Shown here: in pieces, positions 3,961-19,891 of the stretch
How positions within the stretch are numbered: position 1 is the stretch's first letter
Layout: each line of letters begins with the position of its first letter
IMG/VR virus record: IMGVR_UViG_3300038461_000154
Direction: 5' to 3' (one strand)
Origin: an uncultured virus (IMG/VR IMGVR_UViG_3300038461_000154)
Taxonomy: Duplodnaviria; Heunggongvirae; Uroviricota; Caudoviricetes
DNA length: 20,000 nt
Position numbers and translations under genes: made by a program
Notes under the pieces: model-generated
What the model was told of the DNA's origin: nothing
The model's input: the letters and a program-made list of their open reading frames with translations, nothing else
Database searches by the model: none

Positions 3961-4218
3961 TTAGGTAGATTTTAAGTTTACAGCATGTTCCACATCATAA
4001 GGGCAGCATTCAGGCGGATTTCTGTAGCGGCTTGTATATTCATCTCTCATATTATCATCAAAGAGCGTTTTTGTCATAACCCAAATATTGTAACACTCTT
4101 GAATCTTCTTAGCTTTATAAATACACCATATTGTGCCTTGTTTATCCCATTTATGTTGGTCTATGGTAAGGCCATTTATCTCATAGCATTTCTTACAAAC
4201 TATAAGGGAAAGAGGCAT
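3961..4218 (-). CDS. CxxC...C...CPYxxEH paralogue family protein
   Basis: IVCKKC...IWC...PPECCPYDVEHAV. Confidence 0.75.
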   Translation of the reverse strand: MPLSLIVCKKCYEINGLTIDQHKWDKQGTIWCIYKAKKIQECYNIWVMTKTLFDDNMRDEYTSRYRNPPECCPYDVEHAVNLKST

Positions 4219-4533
4219 TTAATCACACCCTTGGTTAACGAGTTGTTCCAAAGGATATTGGCAATGCTTTGGTATTTCTACTTGACGAATGTTTTTTGGC
4301 ATCCATCTTGTTTCATTGTGTATTATCTTCGTATCAAGAACTTTTCTTCCAAAGTTCTGATACGGGCATGGCACAAAGTGTGGGAAAATAGCAATCTCAA
4401 GCCATTCATCCAATTCGGTGTCAAATCTTTTTGCTGCATTCTGATGCCACTGATACCACGCAGACGACTTACAATGTTCGCGGATACACTTTTTACAAAT
4501 AGGAATGTTAAACTTAAATGGTTGCTTTAGCAT
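4219..4533 (-). CDS. CxxC...C...CxYxxEQ paralogue family protein
   Basis: PICKKC...VPCPY...IPKHCQYPLEQLV. Confidence 0.75.
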   Translation of the reverse strand: MLKQPFKFNIPICKKCIREHCKSSAWYQWHQNAAKRFDTELDEWLEIAIFPHFVPCPYQNFGRKVLDTKIIHNETRWMPKNIRQVEIPKHCQYPLEQLVNQGCD

Positions 4534-4931
4534 TCTTGATGCACCAACTGTTCTAACATATACTCACAATGAACCGGAATTGAATCTCCATCTATTTGCC
4601 GTTGTGACATTGATGACACACTCACCCTATGCCAAGCGTCTAGCTCGTATTCTACCAAACTACCAAATGTAATGTACGGACAAGGATAAACACTTTTTTC
4701 CCACCATCGCTGTAACCAAATCTCAAAAGTGCAGTTAGAATTGAACTGCAACTTGATGGTTTCTTTTCTGTCGGTTGGAAAACGAGAGCCATAATCTGTC
4801 AAACAAGGATTAATTAAATAAGGATTATTTGGGCTAAGAGAAAACCAACCTTTCATAGATAAGGTATCACTTGCCAACTTCTGGCTTAAATGTTCATGCA
4901 AACATTTTTTACAAATTACAAGATTTATCAT
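4527..4931 (-). CDS. CxxC...C...CxYxxEQ paralogue family protein
   Basis: VICKKC...YPCPY...IPVHCEYMLEQLV. Confidence 0.75.
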   Translation of the reverse strand: MINLVICKKCLHEHLSQKLASDTLSMKGWFSLSPNNPYLINPCLTDYGSRFPTDRKETIKLQFNSNCTFEIWLQRWWEKSVYPCPYITFGSLVEYELDAWHRVSVSSMSQRQIDGDSIPVHCEYMLEQLVHQEC

Positions 4932-5122
4932 ACTTGAAACATTTTCATATCTTGAGGATAGAGCAAGCCGTTTTCAACGCCAAACTGTGTAAGTGTTTTG
5001 ATTTGTATGGCCAAATCCTTTTCTTCTTCGGTTTGACTTATTCTCCTTTTTTTCTCTAACTGATTCAGGGAAACAATTAGCCTTGCTCTGACTTGCCCCA
5101 TTGATTCAGTAGTTGCAGTCAT
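4928..5122 (-). CDS. small helical hypothetical protein
   Basis: AAGGAG upstream of the ATG; ATGA overlap with the next gene; lies directly downstream of array block B. Confidence 0.65.
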   Translation of the reverse strand: MTATTESMGQVRARLIVSLNQLEKKRRISQTEEEKDLAIQIKTLTQFGVENGLLYPQDMKMFQV

Positions 5123-5164
5123 CTCTTGAACATTCTCCTTATCTATGCAGCACCTTAAAACAAA

Positions 5165-5422
5165 CAGCCCCTTCCCCTGCCTTCCAATGCGTTACTTTCC
5201 AGTGCTTTCCAGTGCTGTTCCCTTCCGCTCCCATTCACTTCAATGGGGAACTACGAATCTGGAAAAATGGCCTTTCCTCTCCGATAGCGTCCTTTCATAT
5301 CCATTGCTCTCCTCTACCTTGATTGCATTCAACAACAATTACAAATCTGAAAAGAGCCTTCCCTTTCGGTCCTGTGCATTGCTCTCATCTCCACTTCCAT
5401 AACATTGCTTTCCCTTACTTCC
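5165..5422 (-). repeat. pentamer (GNA-NN) array, block B: three tracts of about 12-15 units with two conserved linkers; putative guide ncRNA
   Basis: Minus strand, e.g. GCA-CT GGA-AA GCA-CT GGA-AA GTA-AC GCA-TT GGA-AG GCA-GG GGA-AG. Linkers GGCTCTTTTCAGATTTGTAATT (5358-5337) and GGCCATTTTTCCAGATTCGTAGTT (5272-5249). Confidence 0.9.
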
Positions 5423-5469
5423 ATTTTATACAGAAACAACCAATAGTTATGAAGACTTTTCGGTATAAT
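5423..5469. promoter_or_regulatory. divergent sigma70-like promoters, one for array block B (-) and one for the methyltransferase (+)
   Basis: Minus strand: TTCATA-17 nt-TATAAA (5430-5425) just before the first pentamer. Plus strand: TATAAT at 5464-5469, 5 nt before ATG 5475, with no Shine-Dalgarno, suggesting a leaderless mRNA. Confidence 0.5.
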
Positions 5470-5474
5470 CTTGT

Positions 5475-6236
5475 ATGGACTTGACACCGTTCCTAGACAA
5501 AATCATCTGTGCCGATTGTAAAACAGTCTTGCCTGATATCCCAAGCGAGTCAGTAGATTTGACTGTGATTGACCCGCCTTATTTCGGCGTCACTAAAGAA
5601 GAATGGGATGTAGAGGCTTTAGACGAAAATCTTGTCAAAGAACTGCATCGTATCCTTAAACCCACCGGCAACATTTACATTTGGTGCGGCATTGGTGAAA
5701 AATCCCAAAGTCTCATACGATGGTTTCCATTGTTCTCTAAATTGTTTCACTTCAAAGACTTAATCACATGGAAGAAAAATCGCGGTATAGGAATGCGGAA
5801 AGGCTGGCTCTATACGCGAGAAGAGTGTATGTGGTTTGTCAAAGACAACAGCCAATTCGTCTGGAATGTTGCGGAACAATACAGTACCGAAAAGCGGCCT
5901 TGGAACGTCTATAAAAAAGGCGGGGCAATGGTCAACAAATCTGAATTTAAACGTTTTACAAATGTGTGGACAGATATCAACGAAGTTGGCTTTGGCACCT
6001 GTCCTAAAAAATATCATCAAGAACGTTGGAAGTTTAACCACTTCACACCAAAACCAGTTGAAGCCATAGAACGCATCATAAAACTGCATACAAAAGAAGG
6101 CGATGTGGTACTTGATTGTTTTTTGGGAAGTGGAACAACAACAGTAGCGGCTAAGACTTTAAACCGCCACTACATTGGTATCGAAAAAAATCCTGAATAC
6201 TGCAAAATAGCTCAACAAAGAACTGAAGAAAGTTAA
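5475..6236 (+). CDS. DNA N6-adenine/N4-cytosine methyltransferase, beta class (N6_N4_Mtase)
   Basis: VIDPPY catalytic motif near the N-terminus; HFTPKP; VLDCFLGSGTT SAM-binding motif and YIGIE near the C-terminus. No cognate restriction enzyme adjacent. Confidence 0.95.
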   Translation: MDLTPFLDKIICADCKTVLPDIPSESVDLTVIDPPYFGVTKEEWDVEALDENLVKELHRILKPTGNIYIWCGIGEKSQSLIRWFPLFSKLFHFKDLITWKKNRGIGMRKGWLYTREECMWFVKDNSQFVWNVAEQYSTEKRPWNVYKKGGAMVNKSEFKRFTNVWTDINEVGFGTCPKKYHQERWKFNHFTPKPVEAIERIIKLHTKEGDVVLDCFLGSGTTTVAAKTLNRHYIGIEKNPEYCKIAQQRTEES

Positions 6237-6485
6237 CCCTTTCAATGCTCTACAATCCGCTCCTTTACATTGCTCTTCTCTTCAGTCCTCTCCGTTGTTG
6301 ACTACAAATCTGATTAAAAACCTTTTCCTTACAATCCACTCTGTTACTTTGCTTTGCTTTACGGTCCTCTCCTTTTATTGACTGCGAATCTGATAAATAG
6401 CCTCTTCCTTCCAATCCTTTACAGTCATATCCACTAGGCATCCGTTTCTTTCCATTTGTTTCCATTACCATCCACTGCAATCCTC
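6237..6485 (-). repeat. pentamer (GNA-NN) array, block A: three tracts of 16, 10 and 11 units with two conserved linkers; putative guide ncRNA
   Basis: Tracts 6483-6403, 6372-6323 and 6293-6239, e.g. GGA-GA GGA-CC GTA-AA GCA-AA GCA-AA GTA-AC AGA-GT GGA-TT GTA-AG GAA-AA. Linkers GGCTATTTATCAGATTCGCAGTC (6402-6380) and GGTTTTTAATCAGATTTGTAGTC (6322-6300). Confidence 0.92.
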
Positions 6486-6692
6486 TTATTTATTGCATGG
6501 AATGGGCTTTAATTTGGAAAGCCGTACAATTGAATCAAGTTGTTTCTTTACTTCTTTTGGAGATTTATAGACCATAGCAGAGCAGATTAAAATTCCGTTT
6601 CCATCACGCAAAGTAACGTTTTCAAGATTCCAAACACCATCAGGAACAACTGCCATTCCAACAACAAGACGGTTTAATTTTAGTGTTTCCAT
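6486..6692 (-). CDS. small hypothetical protein in the RAMP operon
   Basis: Strong GAGGAGG ribosome-binding site; its stop codon abuts the first pentamer tract. Confidence 0.7.
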   Translation of the reverse strand: METLKLNRLVVGMAVVPDGVWNLENVTLRDGNGILICSAMVYKSPKEVKKQLDSIVRLSKLKPIPCNK

Positions 6693-6703
6693 CTTACCTC
6701 CTC

Positions 6704-6967
6704 TTAACCTTGTGCGCCAGTGTTGCCAGTGCCTTGAATCTTGTATGGCTTTAAAAACACTCTCAAAAATTCCACGTCAAAATCAGCAATATCAACTAAA
6801 AGCATTTGTTCTTTGCTTAATGGAGTTGCACCACCGCTAAAACCAGTTCCATCATTGCGTGACCCTTGGTTGTACACCATGTGCCCTTTGTAAAAAACTT
6901 CTGTTTCCACGCAATTTGGATTGACCACAATACGAATTTCACCAAGATGTGGCTTGCGGGACTTCAT
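6704..6967 (-). CDS. small hypothetical protein in the RAMP operon
   Basis: Start overlaps the upstream gene's stop (6964-6967); 87 aa. Confidence 0.65.
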   Translation of the reverse strand: MKSRKPHLGEIRIVVNPNCVETEVFYKGHMVYNQGSRNDGTGFSGGATPLSKEQMLLVDIADFDVEFLRVFLKPYKIQGTGNTGAQG

Positions 6968-7461
6968 TTTTTATTTTCCAATTGCGGCTGATTATGTTTT
7001 CCAGAGAGTGCCAAAATGCCCATTGCTTGTCTGCGGATAGCTTTTTCCAAAGAAAATTGGCTCTCTGCTGTAAGATGATTCCGGTCAATCTCGCATGTTC
7101 TGGCGTGGTTGCCGATGTAGCGAGTGACGATTTTTGCTTCTCTGAACTCACGGTATTGTAACGCTTGTTCATCAGTCAAACAGCACAAATCGCCCCGGAT
7201 TACACGGCAAGTAAGAGGTTGGCTCCTATCGGCAAAATAAGACTCTACACGCTTGGCCAACAACATGGATTCAAACCTATATTCAGGTTGCTCCACTTGA
7301 AAACCAAACATCTTCTCCAAGTAGGATGCAGGAACAGTAGCACCCTTGTAGAGCTTATCAAATTCAATGGAATACTTCTGTAGCGACACTGGCACTACAG
7401 GGGTAATCGAAGTCTCTGTCTGTGTTCCAGTTACATTAATATCAACGTCTGGTTGACTCAC
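6964..7461 (-). CDS. candidate accessory protein of the RAMP/pentamer-array system
   Basis: Immediately downstream of the RAMP gene. AGGAGG precedes GTG 7461. LTCRVIRGDLCCLTDEQ segment is followed by long helices. Confidence 0.7.
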   Translation of the reverse strand: MSQPDVDINVTGTQTETSITPVVPVSLQKYSIEFDKLYKGATVPASYLEKMFGFQVEQPEYRFESMLLAKRVESYFADRSQPLTCRVIRGDLCCLTDEQALQYREFREAKIVTRYIGNHARTCEIDRNHLTAESQFSLEKAIRRQAMGILALSGKHNQPQLENKK

Positions 7462-7487
7462 ATCCACCTCCTGTTTATACCAAAACT

Positions 7488-8132
7488 CTATTTATTTTGT
7501 AGACTGAGAGATTCAGTCTCACTAATAACACCAGCGCCTTCCTTATAGCGAACATGCTCTGCTTTTTCGATTTTGAAAAGCCCGTATCTCGGACGCCAAT
7601 CGCTCAAGCCGATGAATCTTCCTGCGTTCTTTGCCGCTTCAAGAATTTGGTTGAATTCTATGACATCCGGCAAGAAGTTAATGGTCAACGTGGCAGACCA
7701 CGAATGGAAAATTGGACGAGTACGCATAATTCTAGAACGATTGATGACAACACCAGTCGTCAAACGGAAATTAAGGTTCTCGAAAAGTTGTTTGGAATTC
7801 TTTGGACCTTCATACTCCAAAAGAGTATCTTCACAAAGAATGCCGGTTGTGGCTTGAACACCTAGACGATTTCTTTTCGCGCCTGCCACAATCATTGCCT
7901 GAATGTTATCATCAGGCCAGATTACTTGGCTCTTTTCATTCAAGTACAACGAACCTTCATGTTCGATTCGCGCCATATCTTCATGGTCTTTGTCTGTCTT
8001 CTTTCTCTTTGATGTTATTTCCTTGAGTTTCTTTGAGTAAACATCAAGAGGATTTGCCAAGCGCCCGTTGTGTTGAATGGTAGGTGTCATGCCCGTGATG
8101 CGAATGATGGCCATATCGTAGCCCGGTATCAT
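7488..8132 (-). CDS. stand-alone RAMP/Cas7-like RNA-binding protein (Vipr-like effector)
   Basis: N-terminal strand IRITGMTPTIQHN; IWPDDNIQAMIVAGA helix; thumb-like hairpin VVINRSRIMRTRPIFHSWSATLTINF; C-terminal Gly-loop AGRFIGLSDWRPRYGLF. Start is ATG 8132 after AAAGGAGG (214 aa). Confidence 0.8.
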   Translation of the reverse strand: MIPGYDMAIIRITGMTPTIQHNGRLANPLDVYSKKLKEITSKRKKTDKDHEDMARIEHEGSLYLNEKSQVIWPDDNIQAMIVAGAKRNRLGVQATTGILCEDTLLEYEGPKNSKQLFENLNFRLTTGVVINRSRIMRTRPIFHSWSATLTINFLPDVIEFNQILEAAKNAGRFIGLSDWRPRYGLFKIEKAEHVRYKEGAGVISETESLSLQNK

Positions 8133-8160
8133 CTTCTTCCTCCTTTTTGAGAGAAAACGA

Positions 8161-8205
8161 ACCTCTCCCTTGCCTTGCCTTCGGTTGCCTTCCAAGTCCC
8201 ATTCT
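8161..8205 (-). repeat. short pentamer tract in the 5' leader of the RAMP gene
   Basis: Minus strand GGA-CTT GGA-AG GCA-AC CGA-AG GCA-AG GCA-AG GGA-GA GGT, between the -10 box and the ribosome-binding site. Confidence 0.75.
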
Positions 8206-8208
8206 GCG

Positions 8209-8215
8209 ATTATAC
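8209..8215 (-). promoter_or_regulatory. -10 box (GTATAAT) of the RAMP operon
   Basis: Perfect TATAAT in the intergenic region. The same GTATAAT occurs before other operon starts at 10973-10979 (-), 15047-15053 (-) and 5463-5469 (+). Confidence 0.6.
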
Positions 8216-8297
8216 AGAGAAGCCCTATATGCTTTTGAGAAAAAATTTTCTATTTTGTGATTGTGAGCAGAAGCTTTTCCGGTTTCTGCAATTGAGA

Positions 8298-9272
8298 TTA
8301 TTTATTGTCGTATGAGTATTCGAATTCGGCAAATGGAGAATACACCTTGTCGTTTCCCATATTCATATAACATCTTACGCGATACCGCCACGACATTCCA
8401 CTGTCATCAATAAAGGAAGTTTGTTTTGTACAATCAATCACAGAAAAATCTCCCGCCGTTAAAGGAGCACGTTGGACTTCATATTTTTCTGCGTGTGTTG
8501 AATTATTTTGCCACATCAGTTTTATTTGGTTTTCTGAAAGTACCGCAACGTTTAGACTACTAGGTGCTTGAAGTAATGTTGTAATGTTTGTTTGTATTGA
8601 AGGCGACAAATTGTTTCTATAAAAAGCCACAACACAATATGAATATGTTGTTCCTTCAAGAGTAGTTGTGTCTGTAAAACTACAACGAGTAATGGTAGCC
8701 AACAATACAGCAGGTTGATTGCCTTCGCTTCTGAAAATTCTAAAAGCTTCTGTTCGTTTGTCTGTTTTTTCCCACTGTAAGATTACTTTTTTAAACATAA
8801 CCGTAGCAGTAAAATTGGTTGGTGCAGATAATAGTTCGCCGTCAACAATTCTCGTATTGCTTACCGCATAAATTGATTCTTCTTCCCCTGCCGTAGCTTT
8901 AATACGATATTGATAAATATTACCTATAATAACCGTTTCATCTTTCCATGTGATAGCTTTGGCAGCAGCATTACCAGCTTTCTTAAAATCCCCATCATTA
9001 ACCTTTTTTTCAATAGTAAAAGACCACAAAGTATTTGACCTGTTTTTCCAAGATAATTCTATAGTATGGTCAGATACTTGCCTGATTTTTACATGACTCG
9101 GTTCCACCAGTGTTTCGTTTATCCCAACATATTCTTCGTGGATAGGTTGCTTGCTAATTTCTACATCGTTCGGCTCTGCAATTTTTTCATGCGTTTTTGC
9201 GCACGTATTAGAATTTTTTCTACCAAAACGAACACCATTTAATACCATGACTTTATCCTTAAATATAATCAA
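8298..9272 (-). CDS. fibronectin type III repeat protein (about 3 domains)
   Basis: Repeated P..L.......I.L.W.......F.I.R.....(F/W).D......Y.Y.V.A......S pattern. Confidence 0.85.
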   Translation of the reverse strand: MIIFKDKVMVLNGVRFGRKNSNTCAKTHEKIAEPNDVEISKQPIHEEYVGINETLVEPSHVKIRQVSDHTIELSWKNRSNTLWSFTIEKKVNDGDFKKAGNAAAKAITWKDETVIIGNIYQYRIKATAGEEESIYAVSNTRIVDGELLSAPTNFTATVMFKKVILQWEKTDKRTEAFRIFRSEGNQPAVLLATITRCSFTDTTTLEGTTYSYCVVAFYRNNLSPSIQTNITTLLQAPSSLNVAVLSENQIKLMWQNNSTHAEKYEVQRAPLTAGDFSVIDCTKQTSFIDDSGMSWRYRVRCYMNMGNDKVYSPFAEFEYSYDNK

Positions 9273-12738: not shown

Positions 12739-14250
12739 TTATACTGCTTGTACCACGTTGCTATAACTATATTCGCAGTTTGAATGTGCTCGTATCCTAT
12801 AAAAACATGTACAAGAATCATTTTGCGTATCAGTACAATTGCAATGTTCTGAATCTAAACCAGCTATTGTTTCATATTTGTTTCCATCACTTGAACGCTC
12901 AACATTAAAACTATCTATTTTTCCACCGTTATAAGTCCACTGTAAAACAATCATGGTATATTCAATATAGGATGTTAATTTTGGGCTATCAATAAGCATG
13001 TCATTTTTTTGTATTATTTGGTTCGGTTTTATATCAAAAAATGTCATATGAGTATCGCTGTACTTAATTTCACTACCTTTATAAGCCTTGATACGATAAA
13101 AATAAATTGCCACAGTATCTTCCAACTTTTTATCCACGTATTCAAAATTTGCAGCAATGTTGACTCCGCTTTTCCTTGCAGAAACAGTAGCTATCCCTGT
13201 ATAACCACTATCATGGCTCGTAGACCGTTCGATTACAAATCCATCCAATGCACAACCATCATAGAACCACTCCAAATACACCATATTATTGTGTGACATA
13301 CAAGTTACTTCTGGAGTATCCATGGGCTTTGGTACTTCAGGCACAAATGTATTCACTCCAAACTCGTACCAAGCAGCATAAATCGTTTTATCATTATCAG
13401 CTTTGTATGCTCGTATGCGATAACAGTATTGCTTATTTGGTCCTGCATTTTTATCCAAATACGTTAAGGTAGTCTCCTCACCTTTGAGAACTTTTGCTAC
13501 CACTCCATAAAAACCAAGAGCACCTTCTTTCTTTTCTATCTCATAACCGTTGGCTAATTCAGAAGTGACTGCCCACTTCAATTCAACTCCGCTGTTTGGA
13601 ATTGCCTTAGCATTGACAGAAACTAATTCCTGTAAGACAGGACTAAGATTATTACTTTCATTGCTGAAGTCCGAGCACTCTGTGAATCTCTTGTTTTGGA
13701 CTTTGTATTTGTAGTCCTTGCCATATTCCACAGCGGAATCAATATAGCTAGATACTGCTGGAATAAGCGCAATTAGATGTTCATAGTCTTGTTTGTCTAC
13801 GCTACGCTCTATACACACGCTTGTTATGTTTGAAGAATTGAGTTTCCAATCCAATTTTATACCTGCCTCTTTGAATTTTGTAGCTGTCAAACCACTAGGA
13901 ACAAGTATACCGTTCATGGTTACTATTGCTGTGTTGCTGAATCCAGAAACTTGGTCATAGTAGTAAGCTTGCACTCTGTAATAATAAGTCTCACCTTCTT
14001 TCATATCAGAATCAAACCACGACATGCTCAAAAGTCTATCTTGACTTGATGAATCTACTTTTACAGGTGGCGACGTAAACTCTGTTGTTTGTGATTTGAA
14101 AACGCAAAAGCCGGTAGGATGAACTGGATACAACTTACCACCATCATATTTCCACGTAAGCTTTATCTGGCTACCACACAATCTAGCTTCCAAATTCGTT
14201 GGCTGCTTTATCCAACCCCTTGGCCTCACTTTGGAATTATTGCCAACCAT
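12739..14250 (-). CDS. fibronectin type III repeat protein (about 5 domains)
   Basis: Five repeats with IKLTW/IKLDW/VELKW/VYLEW/IVLQW, each ending in Y(Y/K/C)YR(I/V)xA-like strands. AAAGGAG before ATG 14250. Confidence 0.9.
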   Translation of the reverse strand: MVGNNSKVRPRGWIKQPTNLEARLCGSQIKLTWKYDGGKLYPVHPTGFCVFKSQTTEFTSPPVKVDSSSQDRLLSMSWFDSDMKEGETYYYRVQAYYYDQVSGFSNTAIVTMNGILVPSGLTATKFKEAGIKLDWKLNSSNITSVCIERSVDKQDYEHLIALIPAVSSYIDSAVEYGKDYKYKVQNKRFTECSDFSNESNNLSPVLQELVSVNAKAIPNSGVELKWAVTSELANGYEIEKKEGALGFYGVVAKVLKGEETTLTYLDKNAGPNKQYCYRIRAYKADNDKTIYAAWYEFGVNTFVPEVPKPMDTPEVTCMSHNNMVYLEWFYDGCALDGFVIERSTSHDSGYTGIATVSARKSGVNIAANFEYVDKKLEDTVAIYFYRIKAYKGSEIKYSDTHMTFFDIKPNQIIQKNDMLIDSPKLTSYIEYTMIVLQWTYNGGKIDSFNVERSSDGNKYETIAGLDSEHCNCTDTQNDSCTCFYRIRAHSNCEYSYSNVVQAV

Positions 14251-14296
14251 AGCCACACTCCTTTAATCTATTATGTGATGGCTTATTCAGAAAATG

Positions 14297-14735: not shown

Positions 14736-14999
14736 CTATTCGATTTTCTTCAAATGACCACTCACCAGCTTAGTCATTTCAAACATGTCTACCTGTTTCT
14801 TGCCGTTGAAGACTGGCTTGAGTTTTTCATCAGCAATAATGACACGCTTGTTCTTTTCGTCTTGCAGGTTGTTAGCTTTGATGTATTCCCAAAGCTTCTT
14901 GACTACTTGGGGTCTTGGAATAGGCTTATCCCCCACAACTGCCGCCAATGCTTCATCTGGTTGAAGCGGTGCCTGAAGCCCTAAACCTTTCTTTGCCAC
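14736..14999 (-). CDS. SWIB/MDM2 domain protein
   Basis: LAAVVGDKPIPRPQVVKKLWEYIKANNLQDEKNKRVIIADEKLKPVF...MFEMTKLVSGHL is a canonical bacterial SWIB sequence. AAAGGAG and TATAAT lie upstream. Confidence 0.95.
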   Translation of the reverse strand: MAKKGLGLQAPLQPDEALAAVVGDKPIPRPQVVKKLWEYIKANNLQDEKNKRVIIADEKLKPVFNGKKQVDMFEMTKLVSGHLKKIE

Positions 15000-18269: not shown

Positions 18270-18653
18270 TTACTGTTTGATGTTACGATAATGTTTTTTA
18301 CATAAACCCTTGGCGTGGAACTGTCCCTCACAGCCTTCAATTGAGCAAAACCTTTCATTAGGGTTACGTTTAAACACATTTTTGTAATAATGTTGCTTGC
18401 AATACCCTTTCGCGTGAGGCTCTTCGTTACATCCATCTACTTGGCATTTTCTTATTTCTTCGGGGGGAATGTCTTCGTGCAGCACATGTTCTAGGCAATA
18501 TGGGCAAGCATCTGGCGGGTCATGTGTAATGAAAACACTGCATAATACTTCAGGACATTCAATGACACCAAGTTTCCAAAGACGTTTCCTAATCTGACTC
18601 CACTTTCTTCCTTGAACTTCAATACATTTTCGACAGACTTTTTTGTTCAACAT
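18270..18653 (-). CDS. CxxC...CPYxxEH family domain fused to two C-x4-C...KGxCxxHY zinc fingers
   Basis: VCRKC...IECP...PPDACPYCLEHVL, then CQVDGC..AKGYCKQHY and CSIEGC..AKGLCKKHY. Confidence 0.8.
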   Translation of the reverse strand: MLNKKVCRKCIEVQGRKWSQIRKRLWKLGVIECPEVLCSVFITHDPPDACPYCLEHVLHEDIPPEEIRKCQVDGCNEEPHAKGYCKQHYYKNVFKRNPNERFCSIEGCEGQFHAKGLCKKHYRNIKQ

Positions 18654-19129
18654 TTGAAATCTGATTCATCATCTTTTGACAAGACGTGCTCTAGTTCATA
18701 AGGACAACTTTCTGGCGGATTGTCCTTCCACACAAACAGGATTTTACACGTCTTGTGGCAGAAAATACACTTCTTTTTGTAAACTTCTTGCACATCTAAA
18801 TGAACTTCTGTTGATTGCTTACAGACCGCACAAACCTTGGCATTGATTTTTCTTGGGAACTGCGTGTAAGATAATTGTTCAACAAGCCAACCAAAGTTCT
18901 CAAAGAATATCTCGTAGTCTGGAATAGCGAAGCTATAGTTGCCACTGGTACTAGTAGTTACTGTGCCTATCGGAATAGAAGTGGACCCGATGCCATAGAG
19001 AGACTGGTTGGCATACACAGGGTAGATGTTAGAATTGTTGGGAGAGCTATACGTGATAGTGCCCGAATTGTTGGTGCTGGTTGTAATTGTATTCCAATTT
19101 GTATTAGGTGAAAGTGGGAGAGCCGCCAT
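18647..19129 (-). CDS. Ser/Thr-rich N-terminus plus CxxC...CPYxxEH family domain
   Basis: INAKVCAVC...IFC...PPESCPYELEHVL; AAGGA before ATG 19129. Confidence 0.75.
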   Translation of the reverse strand: MAALPLSPNTNWNTITTSTNNSGTITYSSPNNSNIYPVYANQSLYGIGSTSIPIGTVTTSTSGNYSFAIPDYEIFFENFGWLVEQLSYTQFPRKINAKVCAVCKQSTEVHLDVQEVYKKKCIFCHKTCKILFVWKDNPPESCPYELEHVLSKDDESDFKC

Positions 19130-19131
19130 AA

Positions 19132-19383
19132 TCAATGTTTCCTTGTAACCAATTGTTCTATAAGATAAGGACACCATTTCGGTGGTTCTGCTTTGACTTC
19201 TATAAAACCAAAAATAGAAGTCAATAGGTTGTAATATCTCTCATCTGGTATTTTATTATGGCTAAGTAATTGACGCGGACAGGATATATAACCTTCTTTC
19301 CACGTCATATCAGTGTCATTGTTCCACGGTAATAATGATTGTCTATAGCAAGTCTTACATATTTTCTTGCGAATTTTATTCAT
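19132..19383 (-). CDS. CxxC...CPYxxEQ paralogue family protein
   Basis: KICKTC...W..GYISCP...PPKWCPYLIEQLV. Confidence 0.8.
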   Translation of the reverse strand: MNKIRKKICKTCYRQSLLPWNNDTDMTWKEGYISCPRQLLSHNKIPDERYYNLLTSIFGFIEVKAEPPKWCPYLIEQLVTRKH

Positions 19384-19891
19384 AGAGGTTCACTTCGGCG
19401 CTCGTACCGTTGGAATAATACAGCCTTACTTTTACACCAGCTTCTCTAAGCATAATCTTGGCATGAGCCATTTGTTCTTTCCATCTTGTTTCCCATGCTT
19501 TTTTCTTTGTTTCATAGGTATCACCAGCTATGATGATTTCAATAATACCAACATTGATAAGAGCACGGGCGCAATCAGTACAGGGCAAAAAATCCATGTA
19601 AATACGACAACCCTTTAATCCAGCACCTCCAATTCTTGCCTTGTTGTAAATTGAGTTGCGTTCGGCGTGTTCAATGTAAAAATATTTAAGGGGTCTTTCT
19701 TGCCTTTCAGGAACGTCATCTTTTATGCCACGCGGGAAGCTATTGTAACCAGTAGTACGGATGTCGTTATCCGGTCCAACAATAACACAACCTACTTTGG
19801 TTGATTTGTCTTTTGATTTTCTTGAAAGCGGTTCTACCATTCCAAGGAAGTATTCATCAAATGTTACGTCTTCTGGCTTGTCTTCTAGCAT
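19376..19891 (-). CDS. dCMP deaminase (ComEB/deoxycytidylate deaminase family)
   Basis: SKDKSTKVGCVIV...TGYN.FPRG...HAERN...PCTDC. Confidence 0.93.
   Translation of the reverse strand: MLEDKPEDVTFDEYFLGMVEPLSRKSKDKSTKVGCVIVGPDNDIRTTGYNSFPRGIKDDVPERQERPLKYFYIEHAERNSIYNKARIGGAGLKGCRIYMDFLPCTDCARALINVGIIEIIIAGDTYETKKKAWETRWKEQMAHAKIMLREAGVKVRLYYSNGTSAEVNLYE

What the first reader, a model, noticed from the sequence alone, without database searches (positions are those of the whole stretch)
5249..6402. Conserved inter-tract linker: likely processing or handle element
Seen: four copies on the minus strand, GGCTATTTATCAGATTCGCAGTC (6402-6380), GGTTTTTAATCAGATTTGTAGTC (6322-6300), GGCTCTTTTCAGATTTGTAATT (5358-5337) and GGCCATTTTTCCAGATTCGTAGTT (5272-5249). 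The consensus is GGY, a T-rich stretch, then CAGATTYGYARTY. Linkers are spaced about 80-90 nt apart, and only a weak GAUU/AGUC stem is possible. Inference: the linker marks where a precursor is cut into individual guides, or where the protein filament is capped, analogous to a CRISPR repeat.
Basis: partly seen in the sequence, partly recalled or inferred. Interest (0 to 1): 0.7.

Follow-up and report, generated by a model that had tools for sequence, protein, structure and literature searches.

The report
Guide-RNA boundary in purine-coded VIPR array
The four repeats sit between five-base-repeat tracts next to a phage gene related to a known RNA-guided silencing protein (VIPR); they likely mark where each guide RNA ends and where a long precursor is likely cut, a step not described in the VIPR preprints read.

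Summary
The four copies are real. The 13-nt core occurs exactly 4 times in the 126,653-nt contig (0.12 expected). They lie in a phage VIPR locus: 7488-8132(-) is a Vipr homologue (E 1e-29 to SUSP1 Vipr), with seven pentamer tracts. The unit here is A-NN-G-N rather than the published Y-NN-GG.

The linker has two parts. A U/C-rich run follows all seven tracts and is typical of A-type loci. The CAGAUU-YGY-ARUY core lies only between tracts and was found only in this phage and one orthologue.

The linkers do not fold. They are not Rfam RNAs, promoters or terminators. Best reading (0.6): a filament stop plus a short 3' tail, cut in the exposed linker. No RNA data exist, so cutting is untested.

A guide shared by three related A-type loci matches a Sak4-like phage gene at its first 10 of 12 units under the one-base-skip rule. 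No target was found for this window's guides. The scan had not reported this before. New variant of a known system; interest 0.45.

The parts
8209..8214 (-). TATAAT -10-like box upstream of tract 0 (inferred promoter)
   Evidence: kept in L161; not reported by the sigma-70 scan
8162..8202 (-). Tract 0 (upstream vrRNA): 6 in-frame A-NN-G-N units plus 2 offset units
8148..8161 (-). U/C-rich tail of tract 0, no GATT core; followed by AGGAGG (8144-8139) and the vipr start
7488..8132 (-). vipr, 214 aa RAMP (Vipr homologue)
   Evidence: PDB 36pp SUSP1 Vipr E 1.2e-29; PHROG 4652; model pLDDT 93, closest folds Csm/Cmr RAMPs
6964..7467 (-). 167 aa ORF in the vap position; family unknown
   Evidence: kept in L161
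6704..6967 (-). 87 aa ORF of unknown function; a further small ORF read by eye at about 6692-6486
   Evidence: similar ORFs in L161
6401..6486 (-). Tract 1, about 17 units with a 1-nt register shift; L161 has an extra linker and tract inside it
6376..6400 (-). Linker 1 (25 nt): U-rich run plus core at 6392-6380
6321..6375 (-). Tract 2, 11 units
6297..6320 (-). Linker 2 (24 nt), core at 6312-6300
6237..6296 (-). Tract 3, 12 units; its U-rich tail starts at 6236, antisense to the methyltransferase stop codon, with no GATT core
5475..6236 (+). N6/N4 DNA methyltransferase gene separating the two downstream arrays
   Evidence: PF01555 E 4.9e-43; same place in L161
5425..5430 (-). TATAAA -10-like box upstream of the second array (inferred promoter)
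   Evidence: kept in L161
5356..5424 (-). Tract 4, with a register shift; last unit ends in GC
5321..5355 (-). Linker 3 (about 35 nt), core at 5349-5337
5271..5320 (-). Tract 5, 10 units
5245..5270 (-). Linker 4 (26 nt), core at 5261-5249
5169..5244 (-). Tract 6, about 15 units with a 1-nt shift; followed by a G/U-rich run without the GATT core

Best explanation
The four repeats lie between pentamer tracts of a phage VIPR locus and are likely the guide-RNA boundary: the place where the Vipr protein filament would stop and where a multi-guide precursor is likely cut. Shown: each tract is built of A-NN-G-N units, usually closes on GG, and is followed by a pyrimidine and a U/C-rich run; the CAGAUU-YGY-ARUY core follows only between tracts. 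Inferred: each array is transcribed from an upstream -10-like promoter. Vipr coats one A-NN-G-N unit per subunit and cannot load on the A/G-poor run. The naked 24-35 nt linker is cut at or near the core, most likely by a host single-strand endoribonuclease with trimming up to the filament (less likely by Vipr itself). This leaves 10-12-unit guides with a short U-rich 3' tail that silence DNA of competing phages by the NN, skip-one code.
For: Vipr homology, with the nucleic-acid contacts named in the preprint kept (SUSP1 H17, K33, R39, K82, R138, D177, W178, R179 align to H21, K37, R43, K86, R139, D178, W179, R180). In 40 orthologous units the A is kept 40/40, the NN bases 34/40 and 36/40, and the free base only 24/40 (p 0.0009). 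Of 102 tract ends called in 24 A-type loci, 81 have GG and 77 of those 81 go on with a pyrimidine. In the window plus L161, 13 of 14 called ends have GG against 37 of 72 inner units. At 61 tract starts, the triplet before the first G.A unit has A in 58. Y-type loci mirror this: 128 of 181 ends are GG followed by a purine (the purine follows from how ends were defined, the GG does not). Last-tract tails resemble inner linkers over the first 8 nt (mean 55%) and not beyond (mean 24% at positions 9-27), in 10 loci. A guide shared by L209, L217 and L219 matches a Sak4-like gene at 20/20 NN bases in 62 of 76 hits; four of these bases were not in the search pattern, and they include the first unit after the linker. 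No promoter or terminator match lies in a linker. The published tail starts after the last YNNGG repeat and caps the filament.
Against: No cut site has been observed, and the nuclease is a guess. The core is truncated in one of five L161 copies. Tracts 1 and 6 run for 15-17 units across a 1-nt shift with no linker, so linkers are not the only possible boundary. The core is missing after tracts 0, 3 and 6, so it cannot be a cap that every guide needs. The counts are inflated by two groups of close relatives (L209/217/219/223 and L021/036/173), and 21 of 102 ends lack GG, some of them false calls. No target was found for the window's own guides. In the Sak4 case, units 11-12 of the longer guides do not match.
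Confidence: 0.6

Rival explanations
1. The whole linker is kept as an uncut 3' tail, as in SUSP1: it folds into the small GAUU/ARUY hairpin when protein-bound, caps or nucleates the filament, and the cut falls at the start of the next tract.
For: The SUSP1 tail caps the filament, which resolves from the 3' end. The stem pairs in 94% of cells in 9 copies, with G-U/G-C and U-G/U-A swaps. In L021 the linker is a strong hairpin (z -4.3).
Against: No change on both sides of any pair. Linker folding energies are 0 to -2.2 kcal/mol, z -0.1 to +1.4. The core is absent from 3 of 7 tract ends, whereas in wV8 a tail-like segment follows every tract read.
Confidence: 0.16
2. Only the U-rich stop matters; the GATT core is a relic of array growth by duplication of linker-plus-tract units and has no function of its own.
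For: The second half of the linker is unrelated between lineages, is absent at array ends, and is truncated in one L161 copy.
Against: AGATT is unchanged in all four orthologous pairs although third codon positions are 69% identical (about 6e-4 by hand). It is shared by two arrays that a gene separates.
Confidence: 0.12
3. The U-rich run is a transcription stop or pause assisted by Vipr binding, or the linker is an internal promoter, so guides are made separately rather than cut.
For: A U-rich run follows every tract, including tract 0 just before the vipr start.
Against: No terminator-like or promoter-like site lies in any linker. The -10-like boxes lie ahead of arrays, not in linkers. Related arrays hold 13 tracts with 19-nt linkers.
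Confidence: 0.06
4. The linker is a DNA site at which guides are inserted or exchanged, like a CRISPR repeat during spacer acquisition.
For: The same guide appears at different array positions in L209, L217 and L219, starting exactly at the linker end.
Against: The one guide gain or loss between the window and L161 has its ends inside tracts, not at linkers. No integrase was identified among the ORFs scanned.
Confidence: 0.05
5. The linker is a self-cleaving ribozyme remnant, as in hammerhead-interspersed VIPR arrays.
For: Such arrays are reported for types I and V.
Against: No Rfam match up to E 1 in 4900-8400; the linkers are 24-35 nt and do not fold.
Confidence: 0.01

Closest known systems
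VIPR system and vrRNA 3' tail, SUSP1 / type II (bioRxiv 10.64898/2026.04.26.720920; 10.64898/2026.04.26.720927)
   Same: Phage RAMP homologous to SUSP1 Vipr; one tract upstream of vipr and arrays downstream; period-5 tracts with variable NN; a conserved element right after the last repeat; skip-one matching seen in an A-type relative.
   Different: The unit is A-NN-G-N (a purine where SUSP1's pocket excludes purines). The linker is 24-35 nt and unfolded rather than a 40-nt pseudoknot. Its core is missing after last tracts. A methyltransferase gene splits the downstream array. The protein carries T18/I19/W72/S177 next to the base-contact positions.
Non-canonical VIPR repeats (NNNGG, YNNNG, NNNNG in 720920; GAC/NN, CAC/NN, WGT/NN, TGH/NN in bioRxiv 10.64898/2026.10.21.760802)
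   Same: Alternative pentamer codes beside Vipr-like proteins are already reported; NNNGG or NNNNG would include these tracts.
   Different: A fixed A, the GG-then-pyrimidine end rule and this linker were not in the text read. The figures listing the motifs (S17; S10) could not be seen and may show them.
Staggered and hammerhead-interspersed VIPR arrays (720920, figs S18, S19; legends only)
   Same: Multi-guide precursors; 1-nt register shifts also occur here in tracts 0, 1, 4 and 6.
   Different: Here distinct linkers separate most tracts, and no ribozyme is detected.
CRISPR repeat / crRNA handle cut by Cas6 or Cas5d (recalled, not from a call)
   Same: A conserved element between variable guides, read by a RAMP-type system.
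   Different: Not present at both ends of the array, variable in length and sequence, no stable hairpin, and no cas genes among the ORFs scanned.

Membership tests
VIPR system | Vipr-family RAMP protein | tested here: met
   E 1.2e-29 to PDB 36pp over residues 9-190; RAMP fold
VIPR system | Flanking non-coding tracts of tandem pentamers with fixed bases and variable NN | tested here: met
   Seven tracts; NN kept and free base variable in the orthologue
VIPR system | Phage-encoded, minimal locus with an accessory gene, no CRISPR array | tested here: inconclusive
VIPR system | Targets recognised by the one-base-skip rule | tested here: inconclusive
   Met for a guide of related A-type loci (20/20 in 62 of 76 hits, skip at codon third positions); nothing beyond chance for two window guides searched in viral contigs or in the own contig
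VIPR system | vrRNAs expressed and bound by Vipr; silencing | not testable with these tools
   No RNA holder listed
Canonical GGY/NN (type II, SUSP1-like) vrRNA | YNNGG repeat unit | tested here: not met
   No GGY tract in the contig; the unit is A-NN-G-N
Canonical GGY/NN (type II, SUSP1-like) vrRNA | Invariant structured tail of about 40 nt after every tract | tested here: not met
   24-35 nt, unfolded; core absent at 3 of 7 ends
VIPR types I-VII | Placement by Vipr tree, RNA architecture and vap family | not testable with these tools
   Reference sets and figures of the preprint are not available; own tree has weak support near the window's protein
Hammerhead-interspersed VIPR array | Hammerhead ribozyme between guides | tested here: not met
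   No Rfam match
CRISPR array | Near-identical direct repeats on both sides of every spacer, with cas genes | tested here: not met
   Linkers 55% mean column identity, absent at array ends; no Cas Pfam family in 10 ORFs scanned

The most novel reading that the evidence does not exclude
A-register VIPR systems are a code orthogonal to GGY systems. A W72/S177 pocket reads adenine, a GG-then-wrong-class base stops the filament, and the terminal Vipr subunit itself cuts the precursor at the CAGAUU mini-hairpin. One ancestral RAMP would then do both the Cas6 job (guide maturation) and the Cas7 job (backbone), and switching the register base would escape hijacking by GGY-type solo vrRNAs of satellites.
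Probability: 0.15. Interest if true: 0.78.

Novelty: new variant of a known kind. Interest (0 to 1): 0.45.

Why it matters
The VIPR preprints show separate vrRNAs but, in the text read, name no enzyme that frees them from arrays, apart from ribozyme-containing arrays. This locus gives a short, mutable boundary element and a simple rule to test: a tract closes on GG and the next base is of the class the protein does not read. It also points to an adenine-reading Vipr group with candidate pocket residues (W72 in 11 of 16 A-type against 0 of 94 Y-type representatives). That could give a second programmable silencing code that does not cross-load with GGY guides. The system class itself is already published, so the gain is mechanistic detail.

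Tried and rejected
No RNA holder listed; this is no evidence on expression. Contigs of 8 of the 13 listed DNA runs showed no variants or joints in the arrays; the four small-share runs did not cover the linkers.

Single-sequence scans of viral contigs with Vipr and with the 167 aa ORF found no relatives. A scan for tract-plus-linker in viral contigs gave 14 hits, none in an array.

Target searches for window guides 6b (15 hits) and 3 (104 hits) showed no extension beyond chance. The own contig gave no convincing target. Ninety A-type guides against the 240 loci and the contig were not better than shuffles overall (skip-1 mean 0.760, control 0.753); the Sak4-type hit in L100 was among the top rows.

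Fold-back of each tail onto its own tract end was not supported. One of 6 window/L161 tests reached p 0.016, uncorrected and not repeated in L161; 0 of 10 other loci were below 0.05. Ribozyme or known RNA: none. Sigma-70 promoter or terminator in a linker: none.

Coding role: ORFs crossing the tracts (6265-6480, 5145-5402) are not kept as such in L161. Predicting A-type tracts from W72/S177 in four untyped loci (L003, L008, L162, L165) failed for lack of clear tracts. A-type proteins are not one clade (8 changes; shuffles minimum 10, mean 15), and support near the window's protein is weak.

Full report
Observation. The four strings are present as written. Their core, CAGATTYGYARTY, occurs exactly four times in the 126,653-nt contig, all here, against 0.12 expected. 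The spacing of 80-90 nt holds within each pair only; a methyltransferase gene (5475-6236, + strand, PF01555 E 4.9e-43) separates the pairs. A related locus, L161 (Vipr 92% identical), has the same layout and five linker copies. AGATT is invariant in 9 of 9 copies, while vipr third codon positions are 69% identical.

Context. The ORF 7488-8132(-) matches SUSP1 Vipr (PDB 36pp, E 1.2e-29). Its model (pLDDT 93) is closest to Csm/Cmr RAMPs (that library ends in April 2026). The locus has seven period-5 tracts on the same strand: one just upstream of vipr and two arrays of three downstream. This is the layout of a VIPR system (720920). No GGY tract exists in the contig. In 40 orthologous units, written G-N-A-N-N, the identities are 35, 24, 40, 34 and 36 of 40. 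So A is fixed, the base after G is free, and NN is conserved. Public runs holding the stretch are mostly peat metagenomes.

Register. I fetched 240 Vipr loci with a 60-protein alignment. With the window, 26 rows were A-type, 149 Y-type and 66 untyped (not deduplicated). In 24 A-type loci (L019 and L207 dropped as duplicates; L210 gave no end), 102 tract ends were called. Of these, 81 have GG and 77 of the 81 continue with C or T. At 61 starts, the triplet before the first G.A unit has A in 58. Y-type loci mirror this: 128 of 181 ends in 80 of 94 representative loci are GG plus purine (the purine is forced by the definition, the GG is not). In the window and L161, 13 of 14 called ends have GG against 37 of 72 inner units. 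Caveats: two groups of close relatives supply many of the ends, some calls are false, the window's tract-6 end was mis-called as internal, and tract 4 ends in GC.

Two parts of the linker. The nine bases after the end are about 50% T in A-type loci, for inner and last tracts alike; in Y-type loci they are 27% T. In 10 loci, last-tract tails match inner linkers at a mean of 55% over positions 1-8 and 24% over positions 9-27, while inner linkers match each other at 49-87% throughout. The second half differs by lineage: a tetraloop hairpin in L021 (z -4.3), a short motif in L219, and the GATT core here. In the window the core is missing after tracts 0, 3 and 6. It was not seen before first tracts. 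In wV8, a GGY-type phage, a tail-like segment follows each tract read and a hairpin-like spacer precedes tracts (read by eye).

Structure. The four linkers fold at 0 to -2.2 kcal/mol, no better than shuffles. The GAUU/ARUY stem pairs in 94% of cells, but the 5' arm never varies, so there is no compensatory change. Fold-back onto the own tract is not generally supported. There is no Rfam match and no promoter- or terminator-like site in a linker. Boxes resembling -10 lie ahead of tract 0, the 167 aa ORF and the second array; the scan did not report them, so they are inferred.

Guide function. Of three guides searched in viral contigs with 16-base gapped patterns, the two from the window gave no extension beyond chance. 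The third, shared by L209, L217 and L219, gave 76 hits. In 62 of them (37 distinct sequences) the unit before and the unit after the pattern also match, giving 20/20, in the sense frame of a Sak4-like ATPase gene with the skip at codon third positions. Units 11-12 of the longer guides do not match, and the shorter L219 guide differs at its tenth unit. The first matching unit begins right after the linker. This supports the skip-one code and the 5' boundary in A-type systems, but for relatives and not for this window.

Protein. Among 153 representatives at 80% identity, W72 is in 11 of 16 A-type and 0 of 94 Y-type proteins, and S177 in 9 of 16 and 0 of 94; I19 and T18 also associate. By the alignment these sit next to SUSP1 H17, E71/M72 and D177, which contact the fixed bases. 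A-type proteins are not one clade, the association is confounded by kinship, and an out-of-sample check was uninformative.

Mechanism. Shown: position, two-part anatomy, register and conservation. Inferred: transcription from upstream promoters, one subunit per unit, a stop at the pyrimidine run, cutting in the exposed linker and a short 3' tail. A host single-strand endoribonuclease with trimming is my commitment; it rests on recalled knowledge of bacterial RNA decay, not on a call. Confidence 0.6. Rivals: whole linker kept as a tail 0.16, duplication relic 0.12, terminator or promoter 0.06, DNA exchange site 0.05, ribozyme 0.01. The one guide gain or loss between the window and L161 ends inside tracts, which counts against the DNA-site rival and shows that long fused tracts exist.

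Literature. 10.64898/2026.04.26.720920: parts 1-4 of 6 and passages. 10.64898/2026.04.26.720927: parts 1-2 of 6 and passages. 10.64898/2026.10.15.759431: passages. 10.64898/2026.10.21.760802: passages. Figures and supplements were not seen; figs S17-S18 and Data S4 of the first and fig S10 of the last may already show A-type repeats or such linkers. Searches found no other VIPR paper. Term look-ups found no 'RNase', 'matur', 'biogenesis' or 'ANNG' in 720920 and no word starting 'GGA' in 759431 or 760802. Alternative repeat consensuses are already reported. No earlier finding of this scan holds these terms.

Verdict. A real, conserved vrRNA boundary element in an adenine-register VIPR locus: a new variant of a known kind. 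Interest 0.45.

Noticed in passing
window 8133-8170 (-); L161 1100-1148: The tract-0 tail can pair either with the last units of its tract (-8.4; L161 -11.2 kcal/mol) or with the vipr ribosome-binding site (-10.0; L161 only -2.6), a possible Vipr-dependent autoregulation switch.
   Followed up: partly
window 5425-5475: Divergent -10-like boxes within about 50 nt serve the methyltransferase (+, near 5463) and the second array (-); the methyltransferase stop codon coincides with the first tail bases of tract 3. Same layout in L161.
   Followed up: partly
L209:1692, L217:2259, L219:4285: One guide shared at different array positions matches a conserved motif of a Sak4-like phage ATPase gene; L100, itself a Vipr locus, carries a near match.
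   Followed up: yes
window tracts 0, 1, 4, 6: One-base register shifts inside tracts, conserved in L161 for tracts 1 and 6; these may be staggered-guide boundaries.
   Followed up: no
L021:3633-3679, L036, L173: A-type arrays whose linker is a strong tetraloop hairpin and whose last tract ends at a terminator-like hairpin.
   Followed up: partly
L017, L186: A-type tracts of 30-40 uninterrupted units with no linker.
   Followed up: no
L270 (NC_012749.1) 940-1240 and 2340-2540: In phage wV8 a hairpin-like AT-rich spacer precedes each GGY tract in addition to the tail; a candidate processing signal for type II arrays.
   Followed up: no
window 8298-9272, 12739-14256 (-): Fibronectin type III repeat proteins (PF00041 for the first; the second judged by eye), unusual next to a VIPR locus.
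   Followed up: no
window 3961-4931, 18270-19383 (-): A run of small cysteine-rich ORFs sharing C-x-x-C near the start and C-P-Y near the end; their DNA ends form repeat family D3.
   Followed up: no
window 14736-14999 and 19376-19891 (-): ORFs resembling a SWIB/MDM2-domain protein and a dCMP deaminase, judged by eye.
   Followed up: no
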